This document shows, piece by piece, positions 6,357-38,740 of a stretch of DNA of 40,708 bases; the first letter of the stretch is position 1, and each line of letters begins with the position of its first letter. The notes beneath the pieces are model-generated. The model was not told the origin of the DNA. It saw only the letters and a program-made list of their open reading frames with translations, and did no database searches. The translations under genes were made by a program, and so were the position numbers. Source of the stretch: an uncultured Candidatus Saccharibacteria bacterium (GTDB taxonomy: Bacteria; Patescibacteriota; Minisyncoccia; Minisyncoccales; Staskawiczbacteraceae); contig CAYIDV010000001.1 in the NCBI GenBank assembly GCA_964362315.1, positions 9,263 through 49,970 of the forward strand. Direction: 5' to 3'.

Positions 6357-6390
6357 TCTTACAACTTTCACAGCTGTGAAAGTTGTAAGA
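6357..6390. repeat. Perfect 34-nt palindrome TCTTACAACTTTCACAG|CTGTGAAAGTTGTAAGA
   Basis: All 17 pairs were checked by hand. It lies 3 nt downstream of the stop of the 6393-6923 gene. The same sequence is embedded in the palindrome at 6961-7010. Confidence 0.95.
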
Positions 6391-6392
6391 CT

Positions 6393-6923
6393 TTAAATTT
6401 CTTCTATTAAAAGTATCTTTACGTAATTATCCAAACTGTATAATTGAAGTAATTTTTCTGTTTTTTCTGAAACATCATAGGGAGTTATCCAAACGCTTTG
6501 CTGAAACATTTTATAACCTAAATTTATTAGAATACTTCTCATTAAATCCCTCTTTTTCCTGTTTTTAGAGGGCATATCAAAAATCAACATTATCCACTTC
6601 TTATCTTTTCTTTTATTGTTTTTGTTTTCAATAAAACTTGCTTTTAATGCTTTAGATAAGCCGTATTTAGTAATAATAAAACCTTTTTTATTTTCTAAGT
6701 TCTTAGCTTTTATATAGTTCTTTCTCTTTAAATAGTAAATAAAATTATTAAACTCCCTCCTCCCCATTTCTCTTTGGTATTTTCCAATAATTGGGTCTAC
6801 ATCACCCATTAAAATGCTTTTTTGTTTGTATTTGTTGCTTAAAACAAAATCTATGACATTATCTGCCTTTTCTAAGAACTTATATAAATCCCATAAAAAT
6901 TGATCGGTAACTCTCAATTTCAT
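6393..6923 (-). CDS. wHTH + Cas2-like (PaaX-like) small DNA-binding protein, copy 1
   Basis: The product is 176 aa. The C-terminal half, WIMLIFDMPSKNRKKRDLMRSILINLGYKMFQQSVWITP, follows the Cas2/PaaX-middle-domain pattern (beta strand-FD-x-P ... R..L...L...G....Q.SVW). The N-terminal half (FIYYLKRKNYIKAK...ITKYGLSKA) looks like a winged helix. A paralog lies at 35701-36228. Confidence 0.6.
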   Translation of the reverse strand: MKLRVTDQFLWDLYKFLEKADNVIDFVLSNKYKQKSILMGDVDPIIGKYQREMGRREFNNFIYYLKRKNYIKAKNLENKKGFIITKYGLSKALKASFIENKNNKRKDKKWIMLIFDMPSKNRKKRDLMRSILINLGYKMFQQSVWITPYDVSEKTEKLLQLYSLDNYVKILLIEEI

Positions 6924-6960: not shown

Positions 6961-7010
6961 TCACACCATCTTACAACTTTCACAGCTGTGAAAGTTGTAA
7001 GATGGTGTGA
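6961..7010. repeat. Perfect 50-nt palindrome with core TCACAGCTGTGA
   Basis: TCACACCATCTTACAACTTTCACAG|CTGTGAAAGTTGTAAGATGGTGTGA lies 38 nt upstream of the start of 6393-6923. A TATAAT box sits between the palindrome and the gene on the minus strand. Confidence 0.95.
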
Positions 7011-10033: not shown

Positions 10034-10594
10034 TTATATGCTGATTGTCAATTCTCTTTTGTCTTCTTTAAAATGTTTGAATTTTATTGAAATTATACTT
10101 TTAGGTAATATTTTAGAAACTTTTTCAGGCCATTCAACGGCTACGATATTTTGAGGATTTGAAATTACTTTTTCAAAACCCAACATTTCTAAATTCTTTT
10201 CATCCTTTAATCTATAACAATCTATATGGTAAAACCATTTATACCACAAAACCTGTGATCGCAGGTTTTGTGGCATATTACTTTTTGGGGGGATTTGGAA
10301 TTTTTTCATAAGTATGAAAGTGGGGCTCAATATTTTTTCTTTAATTCCCAGGCCCATAGCAAATCCTTGTAAAAAAGTAGTTTTGCCAGCCCCCAAGTCT
10401 CCTTCTAAGCCCAAAACCAGCGCGGATTTACCGGGTTTTTTCCGTAAAATTTGCTTAGCAAATTTTACGGCGACTCTCTTTGTCTCTTTTTGGCTGTTAG
10501 TAATAATTTTTTCCGAGGGCGAAGATTTGACTTTAATATGTAAATAGATTAGTTTGAAATAAATATCATGGAAGAAGCAAATCAAACAAAACAA
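10034..10594 (-). CDS. tsaE: tRNA threonylcarbamoyladenosine biosynthesis ATPase TsaE
   Basis: The product contains LEGDLGAGKTTFLQGFAMGLGI, SPTFILMK, YHIDCYRL and VEWPE. The true start is uncertain, because the ATG at 10594 overlaps the divergent gene by 27 nt. Confidence 0.85.
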   Translation of the reverse strand: MFCLICFFHDIYFKLIYLHIKVKSSPSEKIITNSQKETKRVAVKFAKQILRKKPGKSALVLGLEGDLGAGKTTFLQGFAMGLGIKEKILSPTFILMKKFQIPPKSNMPQNLRSQVLWYKWFYHIDCYRLKDEKNLEMLGFEKVISNPQNIVAVEWPEKVSKILPKSIISIKFKHFKEDKRELTISI

Positions 10595-11702: not shown

Positions 11703-13022
11703 GTGACAGAAACAGCAGAAAAAGTACTAGGCAAAGTAACCATCAGCCAAGAAATTGTTAAAGACATTAAAAAAAATGTCAGCAACATTACTGGCTTTGA
11801 AAAAAAGATTAGAGACTATAGCAGGCAAGACACAACTGATTTTTTGAGCGCCATTTTATTTGGCGCCATTAACCTTGAGTCATCTGACGTTCACATTGAA
11901 CCCCAAGAAGACAGGGTAAGATTAAGAATAAGGATTGATGGCATCTTGCGCGACGTTATTTTTTTTGAAGAAAGCACTTATAACTCATTGCTTTCAAGGC
12001 TTAAGCTGCTATCTAATATTAAATTAAACATCTCAGAAAAGCCCCAGGACGGTAGGTTTACCATTGTTGTAGAAGATTTATTTATTGAAATAAGAACTTC
12101 CAGTTTGCCGTCTGAAAAAGGCGAATCCATTGTCATGAGGGTGTTAAACCCTAAAAATTTAATGGCCCTTGACACCCTGGGGTTAAGAAATGATGTGTAC
12201 GCCTTGTTAGAAAAAGAACTGGCAAAGCCCAATGGCATGATTGCGGTTGCCGGTCCCACTGGCTCTGGAAAAACCACCACCCTTTATGCTTTTTTAATGA
12301 AGATACAAAATCCGGGCATTAAAATTATTACCATTGAAGACCCGATTGAATATCATTTAACCGGAGTTTCCCAAACTCAGGTGGCTCCTGAAAAAGGATA
12401 CGACTTTTCAGAAGGACTGGCTTCTATTGTCCGCCAGGACCCAGATGTTATTTTAGTTGGTGAAATCAGGGATTCAAAAACCGCTAAAATAGCTCTGCAG
12501 GCGGCCTTAACTGGCCATTTAGTGCTTACCACCATTCATACCAACGATGCTGCAGGCACCATCCCCAGATTGGTTGATTTGGGGGCCAGTGTTTCATCCA
12601 TCGCTCCTGCTTTAAAAATGATTGTCGGCGAGAGGTTAATTAGAAAAGTATGCCAAGAGTGTTCAGTATTTGCCAAGCCCTCCCCAAAAGAACTTTTGGA
12701 GATAAAAAAAGGGTTAAAAAACGTTTCCAGCCAAACAAGCATCCCCAAAGACTTAGATAAAATAAAAATCGCCAGAGTAAAAGAAAAAATGTGCAAAACC
12801 TGCAGTTTTACCGGCTACAAAGGAAGAAAAGGGTTATTTGAAGTAATGATTGTTGACCCAAAAATGGAAAAATTTATTCTAACCAATCCGCCGGTGTCTG
12901 CCATAAAAAAAATGGCTGTCAAAAATGGGATGATTACCATGTACCAATCGGGTTTAATTGAAGTAGTATCGGGCCAAACCACCTTAGATGAGGTTAAAAG
13001 GGTAATTGAGGCAGATGAATAA
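11703..13022 (+). CDS. Type II/IV secretion / type IV pilus assembly ATPase (GspE/PilB family)
   Basis: It uses a GTG start and encodes 439 aa. Motifs are the Walker A GPTGSGKTTT, the Walker B region ILVGEIRD, the His box TGHLVLTTIHTN, and a tetracysteine motif (CQEC...CKTC). Confidence 0.9.
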   Translation: MTETAEKVLGKVTISQEIVKDIKKNVSNITGFEKKIRDYSRQDTTDFLSAILFGAINLESSDVHIEPQEDRVRLRIRIDGILRDVIFFEESTYNSLLSRLKLLSNIKLNISEKPQDGRFTIVVEDLFIEIRTSSLPSEKGESIVMRVLNPKNLMALDTLGLRNDVYALLEKELAKPNGMIAVAGPTGSGKTTTLYAFLMKIQNPGIKIITIEDPIEYHLTGVSQTQVAPEKGYDFSEGLASIVRQDPDVILVGEIRDSKTAKIALQAALTGHLVLTTIHTNDAAGTIPRLVDLGASVSSIAPALKMIVGERLIRKVCQECSVFAKPSPKELLEIKKGLKNVSSQTSIPKDLDKIKIARVKEKMCKTCSFTGYKGRKGLFEVMIVDPKMEKFILTNPPVSAIKKMAVKNGMITMYQSGLIEVVSGQTTLDEVKRVIEADE

Positions 13023-13047
13023 CCCCACAACAAAGTTTGATGTGGGG
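13023..13047 (+). terminator. Hairpin directly after the ATPase stop codon
   Basis: CCCCACA-ACAAAGTTTGA-TGTGGGG has no clear T-run, so terminator function is uncertain. Confidence 0.35.
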
Positions 13048-16055: not shown

Positions 16056-16126
16056 CACCCGCCCAAGTTTTTGTCCTTATGTGATTTCTATTTTATATGC
16101 GTACCAGACAAAAACTTGGGCGGGTG
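16056..16126. repeat. Hairpin with a perfect 20-bp stem and a 31-nt loop
   Basis: CACCCGCCCAAGTTTTTGTC (16056-16075) pairs with GACAAAAACTTGGGCGGGTG (16107-16126). It lies between the ComEA-like stop and the yebC start. Confidence 0.85.
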
Positions 16127-28278: not shown

Positions 28279-28732
28279 ATTAAAAATTAAAAATTAAATA
28301 TTAAAAATACAAAGTAAAAATTAAAAATCACCTCTTGCCTTTTAAAGTAATAATACTTGAAGCGAAGATATTTGATATTTCATTTAACTCTTTTAAAAAC
28401 CATTCTACATCTTCTGGCTTCACTCTTTTAGTATCTCGCAATAAAGCCAACCACAACTTGCTTTCATTAGCTGATTTTAATGAAATAGAGAAAAAGTTTG
28501 TAAAATCTTTTTTACTACTGGCAGCTTGTCCCTCTATGTAGTTACTAAGAATACTTGTTCCGCTTCTTAAAAGTTGGTCGCTAATCCTTTTAGATACATT
28601 ATCGTTGTGTAGCCTATCTATAAATTGAATGAGCTTTATAACGAAATTATACAATCTTCTCTTAAAATCACTCTTATCTTTTTTCATTTTAATCTGTATT
28701 TTTGATTTTTGATATTTTATTTTTTTAAATTT
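28279..28732. mobile_element. Cassette 1: four-helix-bundle gene plus inverted A/T heptamer arrays
   Basis: The left flank carries TAAAAAT-type heptamers (28281-28329). The right flank carries their complement, (A/G)ATTTTT-type units (28694-28732). The inner inverted repeat 28300-28318 versus 28688-28706 matches 16 of 19. Confidence 0.4.
28328..28687 (-). CDS. Four-helix-bundle protein (23S rRNA intervening-sequence protein / Avd-like family)
   Basis: The 119-aa product carries the motifs QLLRSGTSILSNYIEGQAASSKKDF and ESKLWLALL. Confidence 0.85.
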   Translation of the reverse strand: MKKDKSDFKRRLYNFVIKLIQFIDRLHNDNVSKRISDQLLRSGTSILSNYIEGQAASSKKDFTNFFSISLKSANESKLWLALLRDTKRVKPEDVEWFLKELNEISNIFASSIITLKGKR

Positions 28733-29395
28733 TTATCTAAGTAGTTCCGGTGCTATTTGGGGAGAATACCCAACTTCTGCTTCTGACGGATGATGTATTG
28801 ACCAAAGCAATTCAATCAACTCAGGAGTTGTTAGGGGGAAAACATCAAGGCCGCATCTTTTTAATCCCATTGCCAAAAACTCCATTCTTTGCCAGAGCTG
28901 GCCCTTGAATTTTTCAAAATCCTCATCTTTCATCTGCTGGTCTCGACCTCTCCCTTTACCGAATAACTTTGCAAAAGTAGATTGGCTTACCGCAGTTTTT
29001 ACTCCTAACCCCTGTATGAGTGTGTAGGGCACGATCAGGTAAAAACTTTTGGTCATAATTTGCTCTCCCTTTACTAATTCTTTTATAAATTCAGCGTAAG
29101 AAGATATTTGTGTTTTCAGAAGTTCATTGGTTTGTCTTTCTTCTAAAGCCCTGATACTTTCTAAGTAAGGAGTGATATTGATATGTCTTGACTGAATGAT
29201 GATTTGACAAAAAAAATCCAAAGAGTTTAAAAAACTTTGAAAGCTGTAAATGATAGCTGACTGGGTCTCTAAAGACTGCAAAGCAAAATTTACAGAAGAA
29301 ACCTGCAAAATTCCTCGTATATCGTTGTTTTCTAAAATTAAGACTCCGTCTTTAATGTCTTTTATTTTTAAAAATTCCTGGGTAGTTGGCTCCAT
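28733..29395 (-). CDS. Hypothetical protein of the T4SS-like operon
   Basis: The 220-aa product has an N-terminus (FLKIKDIKDGVLILENNDIRGILQVSSVNFAL) reminiscent of the N-terminal region of Gram-positive VirB4-like proteins. It has no P-loop. Confidence 0.5.
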   Translation of the reverse strand: MEPTTQEFLKIKDIKDGVLILENNDIRGILQVSSVNFALQSLETQSAIIYSFQSFLNSLDFFCQIIIQSRHINITPYLESIRALEERQTNELLKTQISSYAEFIKELVKGEQIMTKSFYLIVPYTLIQGLGVKTAVSQSTFAKLFGKGRGRDQQMKDEDFEKFKGQLWQRMEFLAMGLKRCGLDVFPLTTPELIELLWSIHHPSEAEVGYSPQIAPELLR

Positions 29396-29401
29396 TTCTA
29401 A

Positions 29402-29852
29402 AATTTTAAATTCTAAATTTTAAATCAAATTTTAATTATTAAATTTTAAAACTCTATTTTATTTTGTATTTAAAGCTATTTTTGAAAATATCAAAGTCAA
29501 TTCTTGAGCTTCTTTCCATAATTTTCTACACTCGGGAGCAAAACTTTCAATTGTTTTTGCTAAAATTCTTAACCAATACTTAGTTTCTCTACACTCTTTT
29601 TTACATATAAATATTTTATTCTTGAAATCTTTCTTAGAACTTGCCCCATTTGCTTCCATATAATTAGCTCCTATGCTTGTTCCTGATTTTACTAGTTGAC
29701 CGATAATCGGTTTTGTTATCGTATCTTGTGGTAATTTTTTACAAAAGCTAATAATATTTTCTGAAAACTTAGCAGTTCTTTCTTCCAGGTCGTATTCCAT
29801 GTTTTTTAAAATTTTGGTTTCAATTAAAATTTAAAATTTAGAATTTAAAATT
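29402..29852. mobile_element. Cassette 2: four-helix-bundle gene bounded by perfect 24-nt inverted repeats
   Basis: AATTTTAAATTCTAAATTTTAAAT (29402-29425) is the exact reverse complement of 29829-29852, checked base by base. The cassette fills the intergenic gap to within 1-6 nt of the neighbouring stop and start codons. Confidence 0.6.
29459..29800 (-). CDS. Four-helix-bundle protein (23S rRNA IVS protein / Avd-like family)
   Basis: The 113-aa product carries the motifs QLVKSGTSIGANYMEANGASSKKDF and ETKYWLRIL. Confidence 0.85.
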   Translation of the reverse strand: MEYDLEERTAKFSENIISFCKKLPQDTITKPIIGQLVKSGTSIGANYMEANGASSKKDFKNKIFICKKECRETKYWLRILAKTIESFAPECRKLWKEAQELTLIFSKIALNTK

Positions 29853-29853
29853 A

Positions 29854-30141
29854 TCATTTATTTTCTTTCTTCCACACATAGTTTTTTGGTCCAGTCATAA
29901 ATCCAAAGTAATTAAAAACTGCCTTAATCACAGATTGGTTGTTAATTCTAATAAAAGCTATTGCTACAACTAAAATAGCAACAACCAATGAAAAAATCAC
30001 AAAAAGATAAACAGGCAGGGTTAAAAACATTATAAAACAAACAACTCCTCCTCCAACGAGCAGAAAAAACTGCCTGAAAGTCAGAAAAAAAACAATTTTT
30101 GATTCTTCTTCAATAAATTGAGGAATGGGGTACTGAGCCAT
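29854..30141 (-). CDS. PrgI/VirB3-like small membrane protein
   Basis: The 95-aa product has the N-terminus YPIPQFIEEESKIVFFLTFRQFFLL followed by two TM helices. This matches the PrgI-family pattern. Confidence 0.6.
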   Translation of the reverse strand: MAQYPIPQFIEEESKIVFFLTFRQFFLLVGGGVVCFIMFLTLPVYLFVIFSLVVAILVVAIAFIRINNQSVIKAVFNYFGFMTGPKNYVWKKENK

Positions 30142-30641
30142 TTGGGTGTTAGGTGTTAGATGTTAGGTTCTAGTCTTTCAAAGACTTTCCTAAATTAGTT
30201 AACATCTTTCCACAAACATCGTATTCTTTTAAAAAATAATTTAACTTTTCTTCATTTATACATCGTTTTTGAAATGATATTTTTAAATGATGAATTGTTT
30301 CCCTGATTTCTCCCTGTGCCCTGCTGATTCCTTCCAAATAGATATTTGTATGTTTATTATTAAATCCTTCCGCTAAATTTGCCGGTGCCGAATTTGAAGA
30401 TCTTCTTAGTTGCGAACCTATTTCAAATAATTCAAACCTTGGAAGAGACAAAGTTAAATTATGTATTTCAATGGCTAAATCAAATAGTTTTTTATAAACA
30501 TCTAAATCATCTACCGAATTAAATTTCATATTACCTAATATCTATTCTATGATTATACTACATCATAAGAAATATTAAAAACGTACTTGTGGATTAGATA
30601 AATTTATTCTAATATCCAATACCCAAAACCCAACACCCAAA
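30142..30641. mobile_element. Cassette 3: four-helix-bundle gene bounded by imperfect G/T-rich heptamer inverted repeats
   Basis: TTTGGGTGTTAGGTGTTAGATGTTAGG (30141-30167) compared with the reverse complement of 30615-30641 (TTTGGGTGTTGGGTTTTGGGTATTGGA) matches 20 of 27, and the first 10 nt are identical. Confidence 0.5.
30170..30529 (-). CDS. Four-helix-bundle protein (23S rRNA IVS protein / Avd-like family), divergent member
   Basis: The 119-aa product carries SQLRRSSNSAPANLAEGF and a C-terminal helix pair. Confidence 0.75.
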   Translation of the reverse strand: MKFNSVDDLDVYKKLFDLAIEIHNLTLSLPRFELFEIGSQLRRSSNSAPANLAEGFNNKHTNIYLEGISRAQGEIRETIHHLKISFQKRCINEEKLNYFLKEYDVCGKMLTNLGKSLKD

Positions 30642-30672: not shown

Positions 30673-30782
30673 AATGTATGGTTTAACCTGAGCGTTTCAG
30701 GTTAACTAAATCGCCCTTTGACAACTTGTCCCGTTAAGCTTCGCGTGTGCGGAGCATACCGGACTTTTCTGGAGGGATGAAT

Positions 30783-32090
30783 ATGGATAAGCATAAGCTA
30801 CTAGCACGGCTGTTGCGAGGTTTTGTCGTCACATTGGTGATAGCTCCCATTTTTGGGGCAGGTATTGCTATCTTTACCTTTGATTGGAGGTCTTTCAACT
30901 GGATTGACTGGCTTGTGTTTTCGCTTACGGTCATTTGGTACATCGGTTCGTGGTCCAACACCGTAAACCCCGACTTTATCGCCTTTCGTCAGTGGTTTGG
31001 CTATGTTGAAAGAAGAACCTTAAGGCCAGGTCCCCACTTTGTACCATGGTTTCCGGGCATAAGGTTGCGCCGTATGTATGTGGGGATGCATCAGTTCACT
31101 TACCAGGCGGACCCGAACTCAAACAAACCGAGCTATGAAAGGTCGGGGGACCAAATAGCCGTCCGCTCATTTGACCGGCAAAAAATGCACACTGATTCCA
31201 CCTTTTTCTTTAGGGTGCCATTAGAGGATGAAGACCAACTTATCCACATCATCGAATCTGGCGTACCAATCGATGATGTGGTCGAGTTAAAGCGTTGGGT
31301 AGAAAACGGATTTTCTACTCATATGCTTTCTGTATTTGGCAAGCACCCCTTTGATAAGGTGATTGGTGGCAAGATGAACGAAGAGCTAAGCAAGGATGTT
31401 AACGAATTGTTGCAAAAGCCCGACAGCCTGTTTGTCAGGTGTGGACTTTTCGACAAGAGCGCTACTACGTTCAATCTGGAAGGAACTGGCGAGGCGTACC
31501 TTAGGATTGAGTACGTCCATGTGTCCGAAGACCTCGGCAAGCGCCTTGAGGAGGTTGAAACATCCCGTATTGGAGAAGAGGCCAACATGGCAGCTGCTGA
31601 AGTTCGGGTGAAAACATCCAAACTAGATGCAGATGCCGCTTTAAACGTTGCTATGGGTAATGCTCACTTGGTTGGCGGCGTGGTTGAAATAGCGCTTGAC
31701 CAGTGGGTTGCGGGCGAAGCCAAGAGGATGGGTAAAACTGTTGCCGAAGCAGCAGCACTTCTTAAGAAAAGTGGTGCTTATGAATGGAAGGAAACGGCAC
31801 TTCACAAACTGCAAAGCCAAGCTTTGGCTGGTGGAGGCACTTTCACCCGCACCGAGCAGGACCTTAACATCCACTCTGGCGGAGAGCCTTTGGGAGACTC
31901 CAACATAGCCGGTTTTATCGGCGCCGCTGGTGGTGCTGCAATGGCAATAGCTGCTGCCATGAAAGGCAGTAGAGCTGATCCATCGGGTGGTGGTTCTGGC
32001 CAAGGCCAAAATCCCAGTGGAACTAGGAACAAGAACAAGAAGAAAAAGAACGAAAGCGATGAAGACTTCAAAAAGCGTTACGGAGGGTGA
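30783..32090 (+). CDS. SPFH/band-7 (prohibitin-like) domain membrane protein with a Gly/Ala-rich, Lys-rich tail
   Basis: GGAGGG lies 6-7 nt before the ATG at 30783; the ORF-track GTG is at 30747. Two TM helices are followed by FGYVERRTLRPGPHFVPWFPG, which is typical of SPFH entry strands. GC is about 48-57% in sampled lines. Confidence 0.55.
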   Translation: MDKHKLLARLLRGFVVTLVIAPIFGAGIAIFTFDWRSFNWIDWLVFSLTVIWYIGSWSNTVNPDFIAFRQWFGYVERRTLRPGPHFVPWFPGIRLRRMYVGMHQFTYQADPNSNKPSYERSGDQIAVRSFDRQKMHTDSTFFFRVPLEDEDQLIHIIESGVPIDDVVELKRWVENGFSTHMLSVFGKHPFDKVIGGKMNEELSKDVNELLQKPDSLFVRCGLFDKSATTFNLEGTGEAYLRIEYVHVSEDLGKRLEEVETSRIGEEANMAAAEVRVKTSKLDADAALNVAMGNAHLVGGVVEIALDQWVAGEAKRMGKTVAEAAALLKKSGAYEWKETALHKLQSQALAGGGTFTRTEQDLNIHSGGEPLGDSNIAGFIGAAGGAAMAIAAAMKGSRADPSGGGSGQGQNPSGTRNKNKKKKNESDEDFKKRYGG

Positions 32091-35495: not shown

Positions 35496-35605
35496 ATTTT
35501 GAATATTTATTGATTATATCATAAATTAAACAGTCAACGAGCTGTTAATATCCACAACCAAGATTCATTAACTATTTTGATACTAAGGACTATTAAGTTT
35601 CAAAT

Positions 35606-35651
35606 AAAACACTCTGCAATTCTCACAGGTGTGAGAATTGCAGAGTGTTTT
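35606..35651. repeat. 46-nt palindrome with core TCACAGGTGTGA
   Basis: AAAACACTCTGCAATTCTCACAG/GTGTGAGAATTGCAGAGTGTTTT forms 22 bp with a GG centre. It lies 50 nt downstream of the stop of 35701-36228. Confidence 0.95.
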
Positions 35652-35700
35652 ATAATTAGGGAATGCTTTAAGATTTTATAGATATTGTATTTGATTAGAG

Positions 35701-36228
35701 TCATATTTCTTCAATTAAAAATATTTTTACGTATTGGTCTAAAGAATGTAATTGCAATAATTGTTCTGTGTTTTCAGAAACATCATAAGGGGTTATCCAT
35801 ACACTTTGCTGAAACATTTTATATCCTAAATTTTTCAAAATACTTCTTAATAGATCCCTAGATTTTCTATATTTGGCAGGCATATCAAAAATTAACATTA
35901 TCCATTTACTGTCTTTCCTTTTCTTTTTCGTTTCAACTCTAAAACTTGATTTGAGAGCCTTGTCTATCCCCTTTTTAGTAATAATAATCCCTCTTTTACC
36001 CTCTAAGTTTTTAGCTTTTATATAATTTTTTCTCTTCAAATAAATTATTAATTTGTAGAATTTTTCTCTGCCGATTTGCTTAAGATATTTATATGAAATG
36101 GAATCTTTAGGGCCAAGCAAAACAGTTTTTATTGTGGGGTATGGGTAAAATTCTGGAATACTATCAACAGTTCTTTCCAAAAAATTATATAGATCCCAAA
36201 GAAATTTATCTGTAATTCTTGTTTTCAT
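35701..36228 (-). CDS. wHTH + Cas2-like (PaaX-like) small DNA-binding protein, copy 2
   Basis: The product is 175 aa. Its C-terminal 75 aa are nearly identical to copy 1 (WIMLIFDMPAKYRKSRDLLRSILKNLGYKMFQQSVWITPYDVSENTEQLLQL...). The N-terminal half is more diverged. Confidence 0.6.
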   Translation of the reverse strand: MKTRITDKFLWDLYNFLERTVDSIPEFYPYPTIKTVLLGPKDSISYKYLKQIGREKFYKLIIYLKRKNYIKAKNLEGKRGIIITKKGIDKALKSSFRVETKKKRKDSKWIMLIFDMPAKYRKSRDLLRSILKNLGYKMFQQSVWITPYDVSENTEQLLQLHSLDQYVKIFLIEEI

Positions 36229-36270
36229 TTTCTACTTAATTTTACCATTCGGCAAAATATCCCACAATAC

Positions 36271-36316
36271 AAAATACACCACAATACTCACAGCTGTGAA
36301 TATTGTGGTGTATTTT
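36271..36316. repeat. 46-nt palindrome with core TCACAGCTGTGA (one mismatch)
   Basis: AAAATACACCACAATACTCACAG|CTGTGAATATTGTGGTGTATTTT lies 43 nt upstream of the start of 35701-36228. A partial extra copy of the left arm lies at 36250-36270. Confidence 0.9.
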
Positions 36317-36379
36317 GCCGACTATTAGGCTATAAACTGACTGTCGACTTGGCTAAAGGCTATTTAACAATTTTAAATT

Positions 36380-37258
36380 TTATATGTTTATAGACTGACT
36401 ATTAGCTAACTTTTCCCAGTCAAGAACGCTTAAAGTTTCTGCCCTTTGTTTTGGATTTATTTTATTTTTTAAAAGCCAGGCATTTACCTGGATTTTATCA
36501 ATTTTTAATGAACCAGACAGGTTATTTGCCAATTGTTTTCTGGGTTGGGAAAATCCGGCTTTAACTATTTTAAAGAATTTTTTGGCATCTATTTTAAGGT
36601 TTTTAATATCTGATATTTTAATGATGGCCGAGTCAATTTTTGGGGCGGGCCAAAAACATTTTTTTGAAATATAAGAAATTATCTTTGGTTTTGCGTAAAA
36701 CTGAACAGAAACCGCCAACAAACTCATTCTTGCCCCCACACCAGAAGTTCTTTTAGAACTTTGGTGTGGGGGTGAAGGCGGTCTGGCGCAAATTCTTTGC
36801 GCTACCTCCTTTTGAATCATTAAAATAATTTTGTCAGGAGGGTTTTTTGACTCCAAAAATTTTCTTATAAGAGGCGAAGTTAAATAATAGGGAATATTAG
36901 CAACTAACTTGTAGCTTTTAGCTTTTAGATTATAGCTTTTAGGGTTAAATTTTAAAATATTATCATTGATAGTTTCTATGTTTTTGTAATCTTTCAGTGT
37001 TTCTTTTAAAATTTCAATCATTAACTTGTCCTTTTCTACAGTAATAACTTTACCCGCTCTTTTGGCCAATTCTTTTGTAAGAGTTCCTATGCCCGGCCCC
37101 ACTTCCAAAATAATGTCTTTTGCAGTCAGTTCAGCCGCTTCAATTATCTTATTTAAAGCTCCTTGGTTTACTAAAAAATTTTGGCCCATTATTTTTGAAG
37201 GCCTGTTTTTGTATTTTGATAGCAGCAGTTTTATAGTTTTAACAGAAAGTAGGTTCAT
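36380..37258 (-). CDS. rsmA: 16S rRNA (adenine1518/1519-N6)-dimethyltransferase
   Basis: The 292-aa product contains GQNFL, the SAM-binding motif EVGPGIGTLT, NIPY, and FWPAPKIDSAII. It also carries an extra segment, PSPPHQSSKRTSGVGAR. Confidence 0.93.
   Translation of the reverse strand: MNLLSVKTIKLLLSKYKNRPSKIMGQNFLVNQGALNKIIEAAELTAKDIILEVGPGIGTLTKELAKRAGKVITVEKDKLMIEILKETLKDYKNIETINDNILKFNPKSYNLKAKSYKLVANIPYYLTSPLIRKFLESKNPPDKIILMIQKEVAQRICARPPSPPHQSSKRTSGVGARMSLLAVSVQFYAKPKIISYISKKCFWPAPKIDSAIIKISDIKNLKIDAKKFFKIVKAGFSQPRKQLANNLSGSLKIDKIQVNAWLLKNKINPKQRAETLSVLDWEKLANSQSINI
36733..36772. repeat. 40-nt hairpin palindrome inside the rsmA coding sequence
   Basis: CCCCCACACCAGAAGTTCTTTTAGAACTTTGGTGTGGGGG forms 18 bp with one bulge and a 3-nt loop. 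It coincides with the extra peptide in RsmA. Confidence 0.85.
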
Positions 37259-37286
37259 TTTTAGATTATAGCAAAAATATTAGAGT

Positions 37287-37295
37287 TGTGGATAA
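37287..37295 (-). promoter_or_regulatory. Perfect DnaA-box 9-mer (TGTGGATAA on the plus strand)
   Basis: This is an exact consensus match that overlaps the GTG start of the M23 peptidase gene. Its function is unknown. Confidence 0.3.
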
Positions 37296-38466
37296 AAACT
37301 TGACCGAGGCAGTGTTAAGTGCTAACCTTACCGTATCAAAATCAAAGCAAAACATTTTGTTTACATTTTTTAAAAGAAAATTTAAGCAGATAAAACTACG
37401 AGGGTTTTTCAAAAATCCTTTTCTTTATTTACCTTATAAAAAACCACGCCGTTCTATTGACGGAGGTTTTTATTTTGGGTTATCTTGCTTTGTTTTATTG
37501 GGATTATTGTTTTTGTCATCTGCCAACTTGAATAAATTAAGTTATTTTGAAAACGGAGACACATTATTTAAATCATTTTTTCAGAATAATTCAAACTCCC
37601 AAGACAACAGTTTATTTTTTGACCAAAACAAAGCCTTGGCGCTGGAAACTCCTGACTTGAAAATAGGAGATAATTTTATTTACGGAATTTCCACTCCCAG
37701 AGTCTTAACCACCCAAACCCTGGGAGATATTTTTGGGGAATTTTCCAAAAAACAGGAAATTACAGACTACACTGTGCAGCCGGGCGACACTATAAAGTTA
37801 TTAGCCAAAGAATTTAAAGTTCCCCCAGAAACTATTGCCGATGCAAACAAAGTTTCAAAAGACTCCCCCCTGCAAGTAGGGCAGAATCTTGTTATTTTGT
37901 CAGTTCCCGGAGTTATACACGTTGTCAAATCGGGAGACACCATAAACCAAATAGGCAAAACCTATAAAGCCAAAACAGATGACATAATTGCCTTTAATAA
38001 TCTGACAAACGAATTAGATATTTTTATAGGAGATATTCTAATTGTTCCAGATGGCGTAATGCCTAAAAAGCCAGCACCTTCTATTGCCAAAGCTCCATTG
38101 CCAGACACCTTCTTTATTTATCCTACAGAAGGCATAATTACGCAGGGTCTCCATTACTACAATGCAGTTGATATTGCCAATAAATTAGGAACGCCTGTTT
38201 ATGCGGCAGCTTCCGGTATAGTGCAGAGAGTCAGATATGACTACAGGTACGGAAATTATCTAACAATTTTACATAACAATGGAGTAGTGACTTATTATGG
38301 CCATTTGCAAAATATTTTTGTCAAATCCGGAGACAATGTTACTGTTGGAGATAGAATTGCATTTATGGGAAACACAGGGAGTAAATCAACTGGCTACCAC
38401 CTGCACTTTGGGGTTTCAGGAGACAGGAATCCTTTAGCTGGGAAATCATCCATTAAGTATAAGTAG
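37288..38466 (+). CDS. LysM-domain M23-family peptidoglycan endopeptidase
   Basis: It uses a GTG start and has a TM anchor. There are two LysM repeats (YTVQPGDTIKLLAKEF and HVVKSGDTINQIGKTY). The M23 motifs are HYYNAVD and GNTGSKSTGYHLHF. Confidence 0.88.
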   Translation: MDKNLTEAVLSANLTVSKSKQNILFTFFKRKFKQIKLRGFFKNPFLYLPYKKPRRSIDGGFYFGLSCFVLLGLLFLSSANLNKLSYFENGDTLFKSFFQNNSNSQDNSLFFDQNKALALETPDLKIGDNFIYGISTPRVLTTQTLGDIFGEFSKKQEITDYTVQPGDTIKLLAKEFKVPPETIADANKVSKDSPLQVGQNLVILSVPGVIHVVKSGDTINQIGKTYKAKTDDIIAFNNLTNELDIFIGDILIVPDGVMPKKPAPSIAKAPLPDTFFIYPTEGIITQGLHYYNAVDIANKLGTPVYAAASGIVQRVRYDYRYGNYLTILHNNGVVTYYGHLQNIFVKSGDNVTVGDRIAFMGNTGSKSTGYHLHFGVSGDRNPLAGKSSIKYK

Positions 38467-38469
38467 CTA

Positions 38470-38515
38470 TTTTAACGGCTCTCATCCGCCAGCTGGCGGA
38501 TGAGAGCCGTTAAAA
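38470..38515. repeat. Perfect 46-nt palindrome centred on CAGCTG
   Basis: TTTTAACGGCTCTCATCCGCCAG|CTGGCGGATGAGAGCCGTTAAAA starts 4 nt after the peptidase stop. Confidence 0.95.
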
Positions 38516-38525
38516 ACAGTCAATT

Positions 38526-38560
38526 AAACGGCTAAAATGGCAATTTTAGCCGTTTTTTCT
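38526..38560 (+). terminator. Rho-independent terminator of the M23 peptidase gene
   Basis: AAACGGCTAAAAT-GGCA-ATTTTAGCCGTTT is followed by TTTCTGGTTTTTT. Confidence 0.7.
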
Positions 38561-38576
38561 GGTTTTTTATACCCAA

Positions 38577-38624
38577 AAACCCCCTGCAAAAAGTTGACGA
38601 CCGTCAATTTTTTGCAGGGGGTTT
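38577..38624. repeat. 48-nt hairpin palindrome (23-bp stem)
   Basis: AAACCCCCTGCAAAAAGTTGACG-AC-CGTCAATTTTTTGCAGGGGGTTT has one G-T pair. Its CCTGCAAAA...TTTTGCAGG motif is shared with the hairpin at 40395-40424. Confidence 0.9.
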
Positions 38625-38688
38625 AATATTGACGGGGTCGGACCCCGCCTAACTATTTTTAATCACAAGAACAGGTAAACATTTCAAT

Positions 38689-38728
38689 CACAAAAATTCA
38701 ATGGCTCACTCGAGTGAGCCATTGAATT
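38689..38728 (-). terminator. Rho-independent terminator of comM
   Basis: AATTCAATGGCTCACTCGAGTGAGCCATTGAATT is a perfect 34-nt palindrome, followed on the minus strand by TTTTTG. Confidence 0.7.
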
Positions 38729-38740
38729 ATTTAGTTTAAC

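What the first reader, a model, noticed from the sequence alone, without database searches (positions are those of the whole stretch)
36733..36772. 40-nt hairpin palindrome inserted in frame in the essential rRNA methyltransferase gene rsmA
Seen in sequence: CCCCCACACCAGAAGTTCTTTTAGAACTTTGGTGTGGGGG (18 bp, one bulge) lies inside the CDS and encodes most of PSPPHQSSKRTSGVGAR. Established knowledge: in RsmA/KsgA proteins the segment between the (Q/E)KEVAxR helix and the LSV..Q strand is short, on the order of 6-8 residues (the G-x-K-x-YG type). Here it is about 18 residues, so there is an excess of about 12-13 aa that matches the palindrome length. The reading frame is maintained. Inference: a palindromic mini-element inserted into a surface loop and is tolerated. 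A palindrome can read as an open frame in either orientation, which may explain its survival. The hairpin at 13023-13047 has similar CCCCACA...TGTGGGG ends.
Basis: partly seen in the sequence, partly recalled or inferred. Interest (0 to 1): 0.7.

Follow-up and report, generated by a model that had tools for sequence, protein, structure and literature searches.

The report
Small hairpin element inside rsmA gene
A 48-base GC-rich hairpin-forming DNA element, one of a scattered family found in tiny groundwater bacteria (Patescibacteria), sits in frame inside the rRNA methyltransferase gene rsmA and adds 15 amino acids to an rRNA-contacting loop, a new example of the "selfish palindromes inside genes" first seen in Rickettsia.

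Summary
Window 36733-36772 is an 18-bp, one-bulge palindrome (folding z-score -7.5 as RNA, -8.3 as DNA). It lies in frame in an otherwise intact rsmA gene (36380-37258, minus strand).

It is an insertion. All 80 genome-derived relatives and about three quarters of the 120 closest RsmA proteins have a short empty site (PPxM). The window has 15 extra codons there (36731-36775).

The full unit is 48 nt (36729-36776): TTCAC-CCCCACACCA...TGGTGTGGGG-GCAAG. Units with the same ends occur in frame in enolase, DnaG, Mur ligases, Tgt, a second RsmA site and other genes, and in 5' leaders. They come from many Patescibacteria. Looser relatives occur in Omnitrophota and Planctomycetota.

Other RsmA orthologues carry unrelated GC-rich hairpins in the same loop. 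The element is 81-98% identical between orthologues whose genes are only 62-70% identical, and it shows compensatory stem changes.

AlphaFold2 places the insert in a disordered loop. By alignment this is KsgA "loop12", which contacts 16S helices h45 and h27, so it is not a neutral loop.

Best reading: a small non-autonomous palindromic element (REP/RPE-like) that is tolerated in frame. What mobilises it is unknown. I rate it a new member of a known kind, of moderate interest.

The parts
36733..36772 (-). Core palindrome: 18 bp, one bulged C on the sense strand, 3-nt loop. The outer 11 bp (CCCCCACACCA / TGGTGTGGGGG) are the conserved family ends.
   Evidence: Folding z-score -7.5 as RNA and -8.3 as DNA.
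36729..36776 (-). Full 48-nt unit as defined by comparison with copies in other genes. Sense strand: TTCAC-CCCCACACCA-AAGTTCT-AAA-AGAACTT-C-TGGTGTGGGG-GCAAG.
   Evidence: The TTCAC and GCAAG flanks are shared by copies in unrelated genes and in 5' leaders. Coordinates checked.
36731..36775 (-). Net 45-nt (15-codon) insertion relative to empty-site orthologues. It encodes S162-A176 (SPPHQSSKRTSGVGA), between P161 (CCT) and R177-M178.
   Evidence: Translation checked. Residues 164-174 have pLDDT below 50.
36380..37258 (-). Host gene rsmA/ksgA (16S rRNA A1518/A1519 dimethyltransferase), 292 aa, frame intact. Motifs present: GQNFL, EVGPGIG, VEKD, ANIPYY, QKEVAQR, FWPAPKIDS.
   Evidence: Pfam RrnaAD E = 1.6e-54. 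PDB KsgA hits at 2e-52. Motif positions. AlphaFold2 mean pLDDT 92.2.
13023..13047 (.). Short intergenic hairpin CCCCACA-ACAAAGTTTGA-TGTGGGG, directly after the stop codon of the T2SSE/PilB-like gene (11703-13022). Probably a degenerate relative of the same family.
   Evidence: Its loop resembles CCCCACACCAAACAAAGTTATGGTGTGGGG of L156 and L178. Gene identity.

Best explanation
The hairpin is one copy of a dispersed family of very small (about 30-60 nt) GC-rich palindromic DNA elements. The family is found in AT-rich Patescibacteria genomes, with looser relatives in Omnitrophota, Planctomycetota and neighbouring groundwater phyla.

**What is shown**
- The copy landed in rsmA between the motif-VI helix (QKEVAQR) and the next helix.
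- It added 45 nt and left the frame and all catalytic motifs intact.
- The same unit is present in many other genes.

**What is inferred**
- The gene is presumably still translated into an RsmA with a 15-residue longer, disordered loop12.
- Such elements insert, or are copied, at many places. Selection then removes all copies except those in non-coding DNA and those that are in frame, free of stop codons and in loops that accept extra residues. This RsmA loop is one of the most permissive such places, or a preferred target, so it has been hit repeatedly by several hairpin families.
- The element behaves as non-autonomous (REP/RPE/MITE-like) DNA. Its hairpin, not its peptide, is what is conserved.
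- The mobilising enzyme is not identified. My guess is an HUH/Y1 transposase acting on single-stranded hairpins, as for REP/RAYT and IS200/IS605.
For: **It is an insertion**
- The empty site PPxM is found in 80 of 80 genome loci and about 75% of the 120 nearest proteins.

**It is a family**
- Units with identical ends TTCACCCCCACACCA...TGGTGTGGGGGCAAG lie in frame in several genes:
  - enolase, with an exact 15-aa gap against PDB 2XSX
  - DnaG, two sites in Mur ligases, Tgt, ComF-like and TsaC-like genes, RpoN, and a second RsmA site
- Such units also lie upstream of dnaE, a sigma factor gene and purM.
- Broader family members lie in PolA, PolX, TIM and prepilin leaders.
- Several copies can occur in one genome.

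**Independent insertions**
- L248 has the first RsmA site empty and a type-A-like unit at the second site.
- In L216 the unit lies upstream of the host PP codons rather than downstream.
- P0090, P0091 and P0117 carry units at other RsmA sites.

**Other hairpins in the same loop**
- Types B, C, D and E were folded from DNA and range from -21 to -75 kcal/mol. Type F is known only from protein sequences.

**Conservation is at the DNA or structure level**
- All three reading frames of the left arm are used in hosts (PHTK, PPHQ, TPTPK).
- Stem changes are compensatory: C-G to T-A in L214 and L216, G-C to A-T in L225 and L228.
- The element is 38-47 of 48 nt identical between orthologues. The rest of the gene is 62-70% identical. 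Binomial P is as low as 3.5e-7.

**Signs of insertion mechanics**
- Four-nt direct repeats flank the palindrome in 19 family members, with 13 more flanked by the palindromic TATA. Only 4 have inverted-only flanks.
- In L189, GGGTTTAC is duplicated at the prepilin cleavage motif.

**The family is real**
- 55% of hits share AC..GT flanks, against 4% for a control palindrome.
- Hits fall in low-GC loci of Patescibacteria and Omnitrophota, whereas control hits fall in high-GC taxa.

**The host looks functional**
- Motifs are intact and the model is confident outside the insert.

**Precedent**
- Rickettsia palindromic elements (RPEs) and intragenic REPs are inserted in frame, often in replication and repair genes (PMC10969869, PMC3733652).
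Against: - No transposase or other mobilising gene is in the window, and none was linked to the family.
- Copy density is low. There are two related hairpins in 40.7 kb, and almost none in about 960 kb of rsmA-selected loci.
- The window copy shows no target-site duplication. The TTCAC and GCAAG flanks are constant across sites, and the net insertion (45 nt) is shorter than the 48-nt unit. The real boundaries and mechanism are therefore unclear.
- No presence/absence polymorphism within one species was found. The one search for it was uninformative because the species is not in that collection.
- The element being far better conserved than its host gene could mean function rather than recent mobility.
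- Translation through the insert is not shown.
- The protein database is biased towards in-frame copies.
Confidence: 0.68

Rival explanations
1. The hairpin is a functional cis-acting nucleic-acid structure kept by selection. Possible roles are an mRNA processing or stability element, a translational pause site between the two RsmA domains, or a protein-binding site on DNA. On this reading its presence in many genes reflects recruitment of a common regulatory module.
For: - The element is the best-conserved 48 nt of the gene: 46 of 48 identical against 66% for the rest.
- Compensatory stem changes occur.
- In L083, two outer-stem changes become G-U pairs on the sense RNA.
- The same unit recurs at orthologous sites in several species, in Tgt, Mur ligase, the dnaE leader and a Zn-ribbon gene.
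Against: - About 75% of close orthologues and all 80 genome loci lack it.
- Copies sit in unrelated genes, in all three frames, on either strand relative to the host, and in 5' leaders as well as coding regions.
- The copies in L083 and L215 are decaying, with A-C mismatches in the inner stem.
- There is no U-tract, so it is not an intrinsic terminator.
- No Rfam family matches.
- Two G-U changes out of two has a chance probability of about 0.25.
Confidence: 0.15
2. The insert is kept for the peptide it encodes. On this reading, repeated capture of hairpin-derived, basic, flexible segments lengthens RsmA loop12, which is unusually short in this clade, and improves or retunes binding to helices h45 and h27 of the atypical Patescibacteria 16S rRNA.
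For: - The insert lies in loop12. In B. subtilis KsgA, K169 of this loop contacts h45 and A901 of h27, and loop length tunes substrate choice between KsgA and Erm.
- 26 of the 120 nearest proteins carry some insert in exactly this loop, against one to three at any other internal site.
- By inspection, most insert types are rich in K and R: A has K, R, R; B has 5-8 K; C has RRR; E has KLKERRRGK.
Against: - The peptides of types A to F are unrelated. The only common property is a GC-rich hairpin in the DNA.
- The same DNA unit gives different peptides in other hosts.
- Most relatives function with the short loop.
- The insert has pLDDT below 50.
- Basic, Gly, Pro and Ser-rich composition is what GC-rich palindromes encode anyway.
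Confidence: 0.12
3. All type-A (and type-B) RsmA inserts descend from one ancient insertion and are inherited vertically. The element is no longer mobile, and its patchy distribution reflects repeated precise loss.
For: - Junctions are identical in the window, L087, L214, L083 and L089: CCT|TCAC...GCAAG.
- L215 keeps PP-like codons on both sides of the unit. It could be the ancestral state from which the window type and the L216 type arose by deletion.
Against: - Carriers of each type are scattered among empty-site sequences in the neighbour-joining tree, although that tree is poorly resolved.
- The insert is much less diverged than the gene.
- The same unit is at a second RsmA site in L248 and L174 with the first site empty, and in many other genes.
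- Precise loss that restores PPxM many times is unlikely without flanking direct repeats.
Confidence: 0.05

Closest known systems
Rickettsia palindromic elements (RPEs; Ogata et al. 2000, as summarised in PMC10969869 and PMC3733652)
   Same: - Palindromic repeats inserted in frame into unrelated housekeeping genes of a small, AT-rich genome.
- They add a peptide at positions compatible with the fold.
- The same family also occurs in non-coding DNA.
- The mobilising enzyme is unknown.
   Different: - RPEs are about 100-150 bp and encode a conserved peptide. The unit here is 48 nt (family range 30-60 nt) and is read in all three frames.
- The host phylum differs (Patescibacteria, not Rickettsia), and there is no sequence relation.
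- Here the same loop of one protein has been hit by several different hairpin families.
REP elements (GTAG- or CGTC-tagged palindromes mobilised by RAYT Y1 transposases), including the intragenic REPs of Di Nocera et al. 2013 (PMC3733652)
   Same: - 20-40 bp GC-rich stem-loops with G-T pairing in stems.
- A conserved short tag next to the stem.
- Mostly intergenic, but some lie in frame inside genes, notably replication and repair genes (Pol I, DnaE). The hosts seen here are similar (PolA, PolX, DnaG).
   Different: - There is no GTAG or CGTC tag. The flank is T-W-W-A-C, or TTCAC...GCAAG in this subfamily.
- Copy number appears low.
- No RAYT is in the window, and no RAYT flanked by these hairpins was found. 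The only Y1 gene seen (L089) is flanked by a different hairpin.
MITEs and IS200/IS605-derived palindrome-associated elements
   Same: - Non-autonomous, consisting of terminal inverted repeats only.
- Many family members have 4-nt direct repeats at the flanks.
- A conserved pentanucleotide 5' of the hairpin recalls the TTAC target of IS608.
   Different: - Far shorter than typical MITEs (70-300 bp).
- No parent IS with matching ends was found.
- The window copy has no visible target-site duplication.
- IS200/IS605 elements make no duplication at all.
GC clusters and byp elements of yeast mitochondria (own knowledge)
   Same: GC-rich palindromic mobile clusters invading coding regions of a very AT-rich genome.
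   Different: These are in an organelle. Byp elements are skipped by the ribosome, whereas here the frame is open and nothing suggests bypassing.

Membership tests
RsmA/KsgA rRNA adenine dimethyltransferase (host gene) | Match to the RrnaAD family above the curated cut-off, and to solved KsgA structures | tested here: met
   PF00398 scores 185 bits against a cut-off of 24. B. subtilis KsgA 6IFS matches at E = 2e-52 over residues 10-286.
RsmA/KsgA rRNA adenine dimethyltransferase (host gene) | SAM-binding and catalytic motifs present: GxGxG, acidic residue after beta2, N-(I/L)-P-Y, F-x-P-x-P-K-V-D-S | tested here: met
   EVGPGIG at residue 52, VEKD at 74, ANIPYY at 120, FWPAPKIDS at 202. The fold is predicted with mean pLDDT 92.
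REP (repetitive extragenic palindrome) / RAYT system | Short (20-40 bp) GC-rich imperfect palindrome | tested here: met
   40-nt core with 18 bp and one bulge.
REP (repetitive extragenic palindrome) / RAYT system | GTAG or CGTC tetranucleotide tag at one end (PMC3733652) | tested here: not met
   The flanks are TTCAC and GCAAG. The family consensus is T-W-W-A-C next to the stem.
REP (repetitive extragenic palindrome) / RAYT system | High copy number in the genome, mostly extragenic | tested here: inconclusive
   Only 40.7 kb of this genome is available, with one full copy and one degenerate copy. Density is low in about 960 kb of related loci. No whole genome could be read.
REP (repetitive extragenic palindrome) / RAYT system | Cognate RAYT (Y1/HUH) gene flanked by the same repeats | tested here: not met
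   Pfam found no Y1_Tnp among 37 window ORFs. The Y1 gene in L089 is flanked by a different hairpin, and one homologue in L148 is not adjacent to the element. The rest of the genome was not available.
Rickettsia palindromic elements (RPE) | In-frame insertion in conserved protein genes, at positions compatible with the fold | tested here: met
   RsmA loop. Exact 15-aa gap in enolase. Other hosts.
Rickettsia palindromic elements (RPE) | Length of about 100-150 bp, a family-specific conserved peptide, and occurrence in Rickettsia | tested here: not met
   The unit is 48 nt. Three different frames are used. The hosts are Patescibacteria.
MITE | Terminal inverted repeats plus target-site duplication | tested here: inconclusive
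   The arms are inverted repeats by definition. Four-nt direct repeats flank 19 (plus 13 palindromic TATA) of 94 family members, against 4 with inverted-only flanks. The window copy and its TTCAC/GCAAG subfamily show none.
MITE | A parent insertion sequence with the same ends | not testable with these tools
   Pattern searches are limited to 600 bases and whole genomes cannot be read. Genes lying between paired copies in L142 and L201 are ordinary housekeeping genes.
Intrinsic (Rho-independent) terminator | GC-rich stem-loop followed by a T/U run | tested here: not met
   The terminator scan of 36300-37300 did not report it. No T-run follows on either strand.
Any curated RNA family (Rfam 15) | Covariance-model match at the gathering score | tested here: not met
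   No match anywhere in the window. Only tRNAs matched in 16 loci that carry family members.

The most novel reading that the evidence does not exclude
The CCCCACACCA-ended hairpins would be a so-far undescribed class of ultra-small (30-60 nt) mobile palindromes. The class would be shared across Patescibacteria, Omnitrophota, Planctomycetota and neighbouring groundwater phyla.

- They would insert next to a T-W-W-A-C motif with a 4-nt duplication.
- They could flip their core.
- They would home repeatedly into the same protein loops.

In RsmA, the captured peptides would have been co-opted to lengthen the rRNA-recognition loop12 in organisms whose 16S rRNA is atypical. That would be protein innovation by selfish hairpins in the most streamlined bacterial genomes.
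Probability: 0.2. Interest if true: 0.75.

Novelty: new member of a known kind. Interest (0 to 1): 0.5.

Why it matters
**Genome biology.** Patescibacteria have some of the smallest and most streamlined bacterial genomes, yet here selfish-looking hairpins sit inside core housekeeping genes: rsmA, tsaE, enolase, dnaG, tgt and mur genes. The parallel with Rickettsia, another reduced lineage, suggests that weak selection or missing repair functions in reduced genomes lets such elements persist. They can also supply raw material for new loops in proteins.

**The enzyme.** The rsmA case is unusual because the affected loop is the one that reads helices h45 and h27 of 16S rRNA. The insert could therefore alter a universally conserved ribosome-biogenesis checkpoint.

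**Practical consequences.**
- Such inserts inflate and break alignments of marker genes used for phylogeny and annotation of uncultured lineages.
- They give a simple DNA signature, shared across phyla in the same habitats, that may trace horizontal exchange.

Tried and rejected
- **Assembly artefact.** Rejected. The same sequence is in two other assemblies.
- **Terminator or known RNA.** Rejected.
- **tRNA-derived end.** I considered that CCCCACACCA looks like an acceptor 3' end plus CCA, and that GGTTCAATTCG in Omnitrophota flanks looks like a T-loop. ARAGORN and Rfam find no tRNA at the elements, and the units are symmetric. Dropped.
- **Integron attC sites.** The flanks do not fit R''/R' (RYYYAAC/GTTRRRY) in Patescibacteria. 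The genes between paired copies are housekeeping genes, not cassettes. Dropped.
- **Local template-switch origin of the palindrome.** Neither arm is present in empty sites, and the same arms occur in other genes. Rejected.
- **Phage origin.** Only 7 viral contigs match, and none has the family flanks.
- **Y1 transposase link.** tblastn with the L089 protein found one further locus only. No association was shown.
- **Type D unit as a dispersed family.** An exact-pattern scan of genome contigs found nothing. Untested for types C, E and F.
- **Empty-site allele in the same species.** There were no hits, but the species is absent from that collection, so the test says nothing.
- **Hit count as evidence.** I first estimated chance at about 17 hits. 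Taxon make-up, locus GC and flank conservation were used instead.
- **MAFFT alignment of the units.** It is not structure-aware in the inner stem, so pair changes were read from individual folds, not from the count of structure pairs.
- **Neighbour-joining tree of RsmA.** It is star-like and cannot decide between gains and losses.
Full report
**1. The observation**

The 40-mer is at 36733-36772 exactly as described.
- It has 11-nt perfect outer arms. In full it forms 18 bp with one bulged C and a 3-nt loop on the sense (minus) strand.
- It folds at -30.5 kcal/mol as RNA (z = -7.5) and -19.3 kcal/mol as DNA (z = -8.3). None of 200 dinucleotide shuffles does as well.
- In a scan of the whole window with 56-nt windows it is the strongest hairpin inside any ORF. 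Only a few intergenic palindromes are stronger.
- The window is about 35% GC, so the C5/G5 ends stand out.
- The sequence is identical in two independent assemblies from other samples of the same groundwater site, L081 and L082.

**2. The host gene**

ORF 36380-37258 (minus strand, 292 aa) is RsmA/KsgA.
- Pfam RrnaAD matches at 1.6e-54. B. subtilis KsgA matches at 2e-52.
- All motifs are present: GQNFL, EVGPGIG, VEKD, ANIPYY, QKEVAQR, FWPAPKIDS.
- Names given to homologues place the organism in Patescibacteria, near Staskawiczbacteria.
- The window is an origin-proximal chromosomal stretch. It holds dnaA, dnaN, rnpA, yidC, uvrB, ruvABC, fpg, tsaE and a T4SS-like cluster. No transposase is present.
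- KsgA is universally conserved but not essential in E. coli (established knowledge), so 'essential' in the finding's title is too strong.

**3. It is an insertion**

- Against 6IFS, the alignment has a gap of exactly 13 residues opposite HQSSKRTSGVGAR.
- Of the 120 closest proteins (56-68% identical, plus the window's own protein P0001), about three quarters read QKEVAQRICAK-PPx-MSLLAVSVQ.
- All 80 loci recovered from species-representative genomes have this empty form.
- Relative to it, the window has 15 extra codons: S162-A176, at 36731-36775.

**4. Structure and position in the protein**

- The AlphaFold2 model built on 73 sequences has mean pLDDT 92.2.
- Residues 157-179 are coil between helix 150-156 and helix 180-186. 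Residues 164-174 have pLDDT below 50.
- Counting residues in the 6IFS alignment, the insert falls in B. subtilis A163-S173. This stretch contains K169.
- The cryo-EM study of 30S-KsgA calls this stretch loop12. It reports that K169 contacts h45 and A901 of h27, that R161 contacts the h45 stem, and that the length of loop12 helps set substrate choice between KsgA and Erm (bioRxiv 10.1101/2021.09.15.460497).
- The ErmE 'basic ridge' (R163, K164, R171) maps to the same place by distance from the NIPY and FxP motifs (PMC8906542; the mapping is my inference).
- The loop is therefore flexible and variable in length, but it is an rRNA-contact element and not an indifferent surface loop.

**5. The same loop carries other hairpins in other lineages**

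26 of the 120 proteins have some insert here. They fall into six types:

| Type | Peptide | Notes |
|---|---|---|
| A | PSPPHQSSKRTSGVGAR | the window type |
| B | PSPPTNF...KLVGGK | same TCAC/GCAAG junctions as A |
| C | PAVVSAEEGKTQTRRRQGYGGRG | |
| D | DMTRSTGSGSSRAGRG | three tandem units in P0108 |
| E | several different peptides | |
| F | STSLRAGA | protein only, no DNA fetched |

I fetched DNA for types A to E. Every insert folds into a GC-rich hairpin in a 31-44% GC locus, at -21 to -75 kcal/mol. The peptides have nothing in common except the composition that GC-rich palindromes give.

**6. The window's hairpin belongs to a dispersed family**

- A scrambled control palindrome also reached the limit, so the number of hits means nothing by itself.
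- The two sets differ sharply in other respects. Family hits lie in low-GC loci (median 0.455, against 0.654 for the control).
- Among the 80 family titles shown, 34 are Patescibacteria and 17 are Omnitrophota, by my count. The control set has no Patescibacteria and 2 Omnitrophota.
- 55% of family hits share the flanks AC..GT, against 4% of control hits.
- Outside the ten specified bases the flank consensus is T-W-W-A-C.
- Viral contigs gave 7 hits without these flanks.

*The window's subfamily.* The unit is TTCAC-CCCCACACCA...TGGTGTGGGG-GCAAG. It was found 14 times in genomes and 22 times in metagenome contigs. By the genome record titles the hits are mostly Patescibacteria plus three Omnitrophota contigs. 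The metagenome contigs carry no organism names. Hosts are:
- enolase (L233), where the PDB alignment shows an exact 15-residue gap opposite the unit
- DnaG (L226)
- Mur ligases, at two different sites (L228, L237 and L239; L257)
- Tgt (L238, L251, L256)
- ComF-like (L246) and TsaC-like (L252) genes
- RpoN (L234)
- RsmA at a second site, after VSVQFY (L174, L248)
- leaders upstream of dnaE (L224, L236, L241, L242), a sigma factor gene and purM

*Broader family members* lie in PolA, PolX, TIM, a methyltransferase and a ferredoxin. Two adjacent prepilin genes in L189 carry the unit exactly at the G|FTLIE cleavage motif, with GGGTTTAC duplicated.

*Copies per genome.* One Staskawiczbacteria genome (bin-5022) has two copies, L226 and L232. 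One Omnitrophota genome has five copies of a 49-mer in both orientations.

*The 13023-13047 hairpin* is a shortened relative of the 30-mer seen in L156 and L178.

**7. What is conserved is the hairpin**

- Across hosts, the left arm is read as PHTK, PPHQ or TPTPK, so all three frames are used.
- Inner stems differ between copies by compensatory changes: C-G to T-A in L214 and L216, and G-C to A-T in L225 and L228. The outer 11 bp are nearly invariant.
- Between the window and five RsmA orthologues with type A, 40-46 of 48 nt of the unit are identical, while the rest of the gene is 66-69% identical. Across all carrier pairs the ranges are 38-47 of 48 and 62-70%.
- For the window against L087 it is 46 of 48, with binomial P = 7e-7. 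It is the most conserved 48-nt stretch of the gene.
- Two copies, L083 and L215, are decaying in the inner stem.

**8. Independent events**

- L248 has an empty first site (PPDM) and a type-A-like unit at the second RsmA site.
- P0090, P0091 and P0117 carry PHTK...GVG units at further RsmA sites.
- In L216 the unit lies upstream of the host's Pro-Pro codons, which are now read out of frame. In the window it lies downstream of them.
- L215 has Pro-Pro-like codons on both sides of the unit. This fits either separate insertions a few bases apart, or one old insertion with a duplicated target followed by different deletions.
- The neighbour-joining tree scatters each type among empty-site sequences, but it is too star-like to decide.

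**9. Mechanism: what can and cannot be said**

- Many family members are flanked by 4-nt direct repeats such as TTTA, TAAA, CAAG and CTTG. There are 19 direct-only cases, 13 with the palindromic TATA, and 4 inverted-only. This looks like a target duplication, or like insertion next to a T-W-W-A-C motif that the unit also carries.
- The window's subfamily shows no such repeat. Its 48-nt unit is longer than the 45-nt net gain, so the true boundaries are unclear.
- At the orthologous dnaE-leader site, the core is flipped between L224 and L236 while the flanks keep their orientation.
- An HUH/Y1 transposase gene bracketed by a different hairpin interrupts the 3' end of rsmA in L089. Such enzymes therefore exist in these genomes, but no link to this family was found.
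- Genes lying between paired copies in Omnitrophota are ordinary housekeeping genes.
- The mobilising activity remains unknown. A Y1/RAYT-like enzyme acting on single-stranded hairpins is my inference only.

**10. Comparison with known systems**

- The closest precedents are Rickettsia palindromic elements and the intragenic REPs described by Di Nocera et al. Both are inserted in frame, often in replication and repair genes.
- This family fails the REP tag test (no GTAG or CGTC) and the RPE size and peptide tests. It matches no Rfam family and is not a terminator.
- Literature searches found no description of such elements in Patescibacteria.
- It works like an RPE or REP, but it is a separate and smaller family in a different phylum.

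**11. A second case in the same window**

tsaE (10034-10594) carries its own 38-nt in-frame palindrome at 10240-10277. It falls in a gap against B. subtilis TsaE. In-frame hairpins are therefore a general feature of this genome, not a peculiarity of rsmA.

**12. Verdict**

- It needs these corrections: ksgA is not essential, the insert is in the rRNA-contacting loop12, the next element is a helix, and four of six frames are open.
- The thing is a new member of a known kind. Interest is moderate, at 0.5.
- The open questions are what moves it, why it stays far better conserved than its host gene, and whether the loop12 extension matters for ribosome biogenesis.

Noticed in passing
window 10240-10277 (inside tsaE, 10034-10594, minus strand): A second in-frame palindromic insertion in a housekeeping gene. 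The 38-nt palindrome TATACCACAAAACCTGTGA|TCGCAGGTTTTGTGGCATA encodes NMPQNLRSQVLWYK. It falls in a 12+3-residue gap against B. subtilis TsaE 5NP9. Its sequence family differs from the rsmA element. A second palindrome in the same gene (10442-10470) does not look like an insertion.
   Followed up: partly
window 6357-6390 and 6961-7010; 35604-35653 and 36270-36317: Both PaaX_M (Cas2-like domain) 175-aa genes (6393-6923 and 35701-36228) are bracketed on both sides by long perfect palindromes centred on CACAG|CTGTG-like cores. The 34-nt palindrome downstream of the first gene is the inner part of the 50-nt one upstream. This resembles a gene cassette with cognate hairpins, as in a REPtron. One of the two genes is the immediate neighbour of rsmA.
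   Followed up: no
window 38470-38731: Four strong hairpins in a row (38470-38515, 38526-38555, 38577-38624, 38692-38731) fill the convergent intergenic region between the M23 peptidase gene and the Mg-chelatase-like gene. One of them has C5/G5 ends: CCCCCTGCAAAAAGTTGACG....
   Followed up: no
window 28328-30529: Three paralogous genes for PF05635 '23S rRNA intervening sequence protein' (28328-28687, 29459-29800, 30170-30529) are interleaved with genes of a T4SS-like cluster (PrgI, TraG-like ATPase, pilin).
   Followed up: no
window 30747-32090: The SPFH/Band7 gene is about 50% GC in a 35% GC window. It holds a -26 kcal/mol hairpin at 31237-31288. The Pfam match spans about 40 more residues than the profile. 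This may be another in-frame insert or a horizontally acquired gene.
   Followed up: no
window 16056-16126: A perfect 20-nt inverted repeat (CACCCGCCCAAGTTTTTGTC ... GACAAAAACTTGGGCGGGTG) with a 31-nt spacer lies between the HHH/LTD (ComEA-like) gene and yebC. Its CCCGCC motif recalls the type C and type E hairpins found in the RsmA loop of other lineages.
   Followed up: no
L089 4600-5640: In this orthologue (type B insert), the 3' end of rsmA is also interrupted by an HUH/Y1 transposase gene bracketed by GGGTCTAAGCC|GGCTTAGACCC hairpins. The displaced RsmA C-terminus is still readable downstream.
   Followed up: partly
L189 1363-2663: Two adjacent type IV prepilin genes each carry the CCCCACACCA element exactly at the G|FTLIE leader-peptidase motif, with GGGTTTAC duplicated. 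The inserted peptide would be cut off with the leader.
   Followed up: partly
L224 4249-4297 versus L236 99-148: At the orthologous site upstream of dnaE, the element core is inverted between two genomes: a bulged G on the left arm against a bulged C on the right arm. The TTCAC and GCAAG flanks keep their orientation. This suggests flip-flop inversion of the hairpin, or independent insertions.
   Followed up: no
L091 10484-10624: One RsmA orthologue (P0108) has three tandem copies of the type D hairpin unit in loop12, adding about 45 residues.
   Followed up: no
L234 (Omnitrophota rpoN): The sigma-54 gene carries one subfamily unit in frame near the DNA-binding domain. A second PHTN...IGVG-type segment lies near the N-terminus of the same protein.
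   Followed up: no
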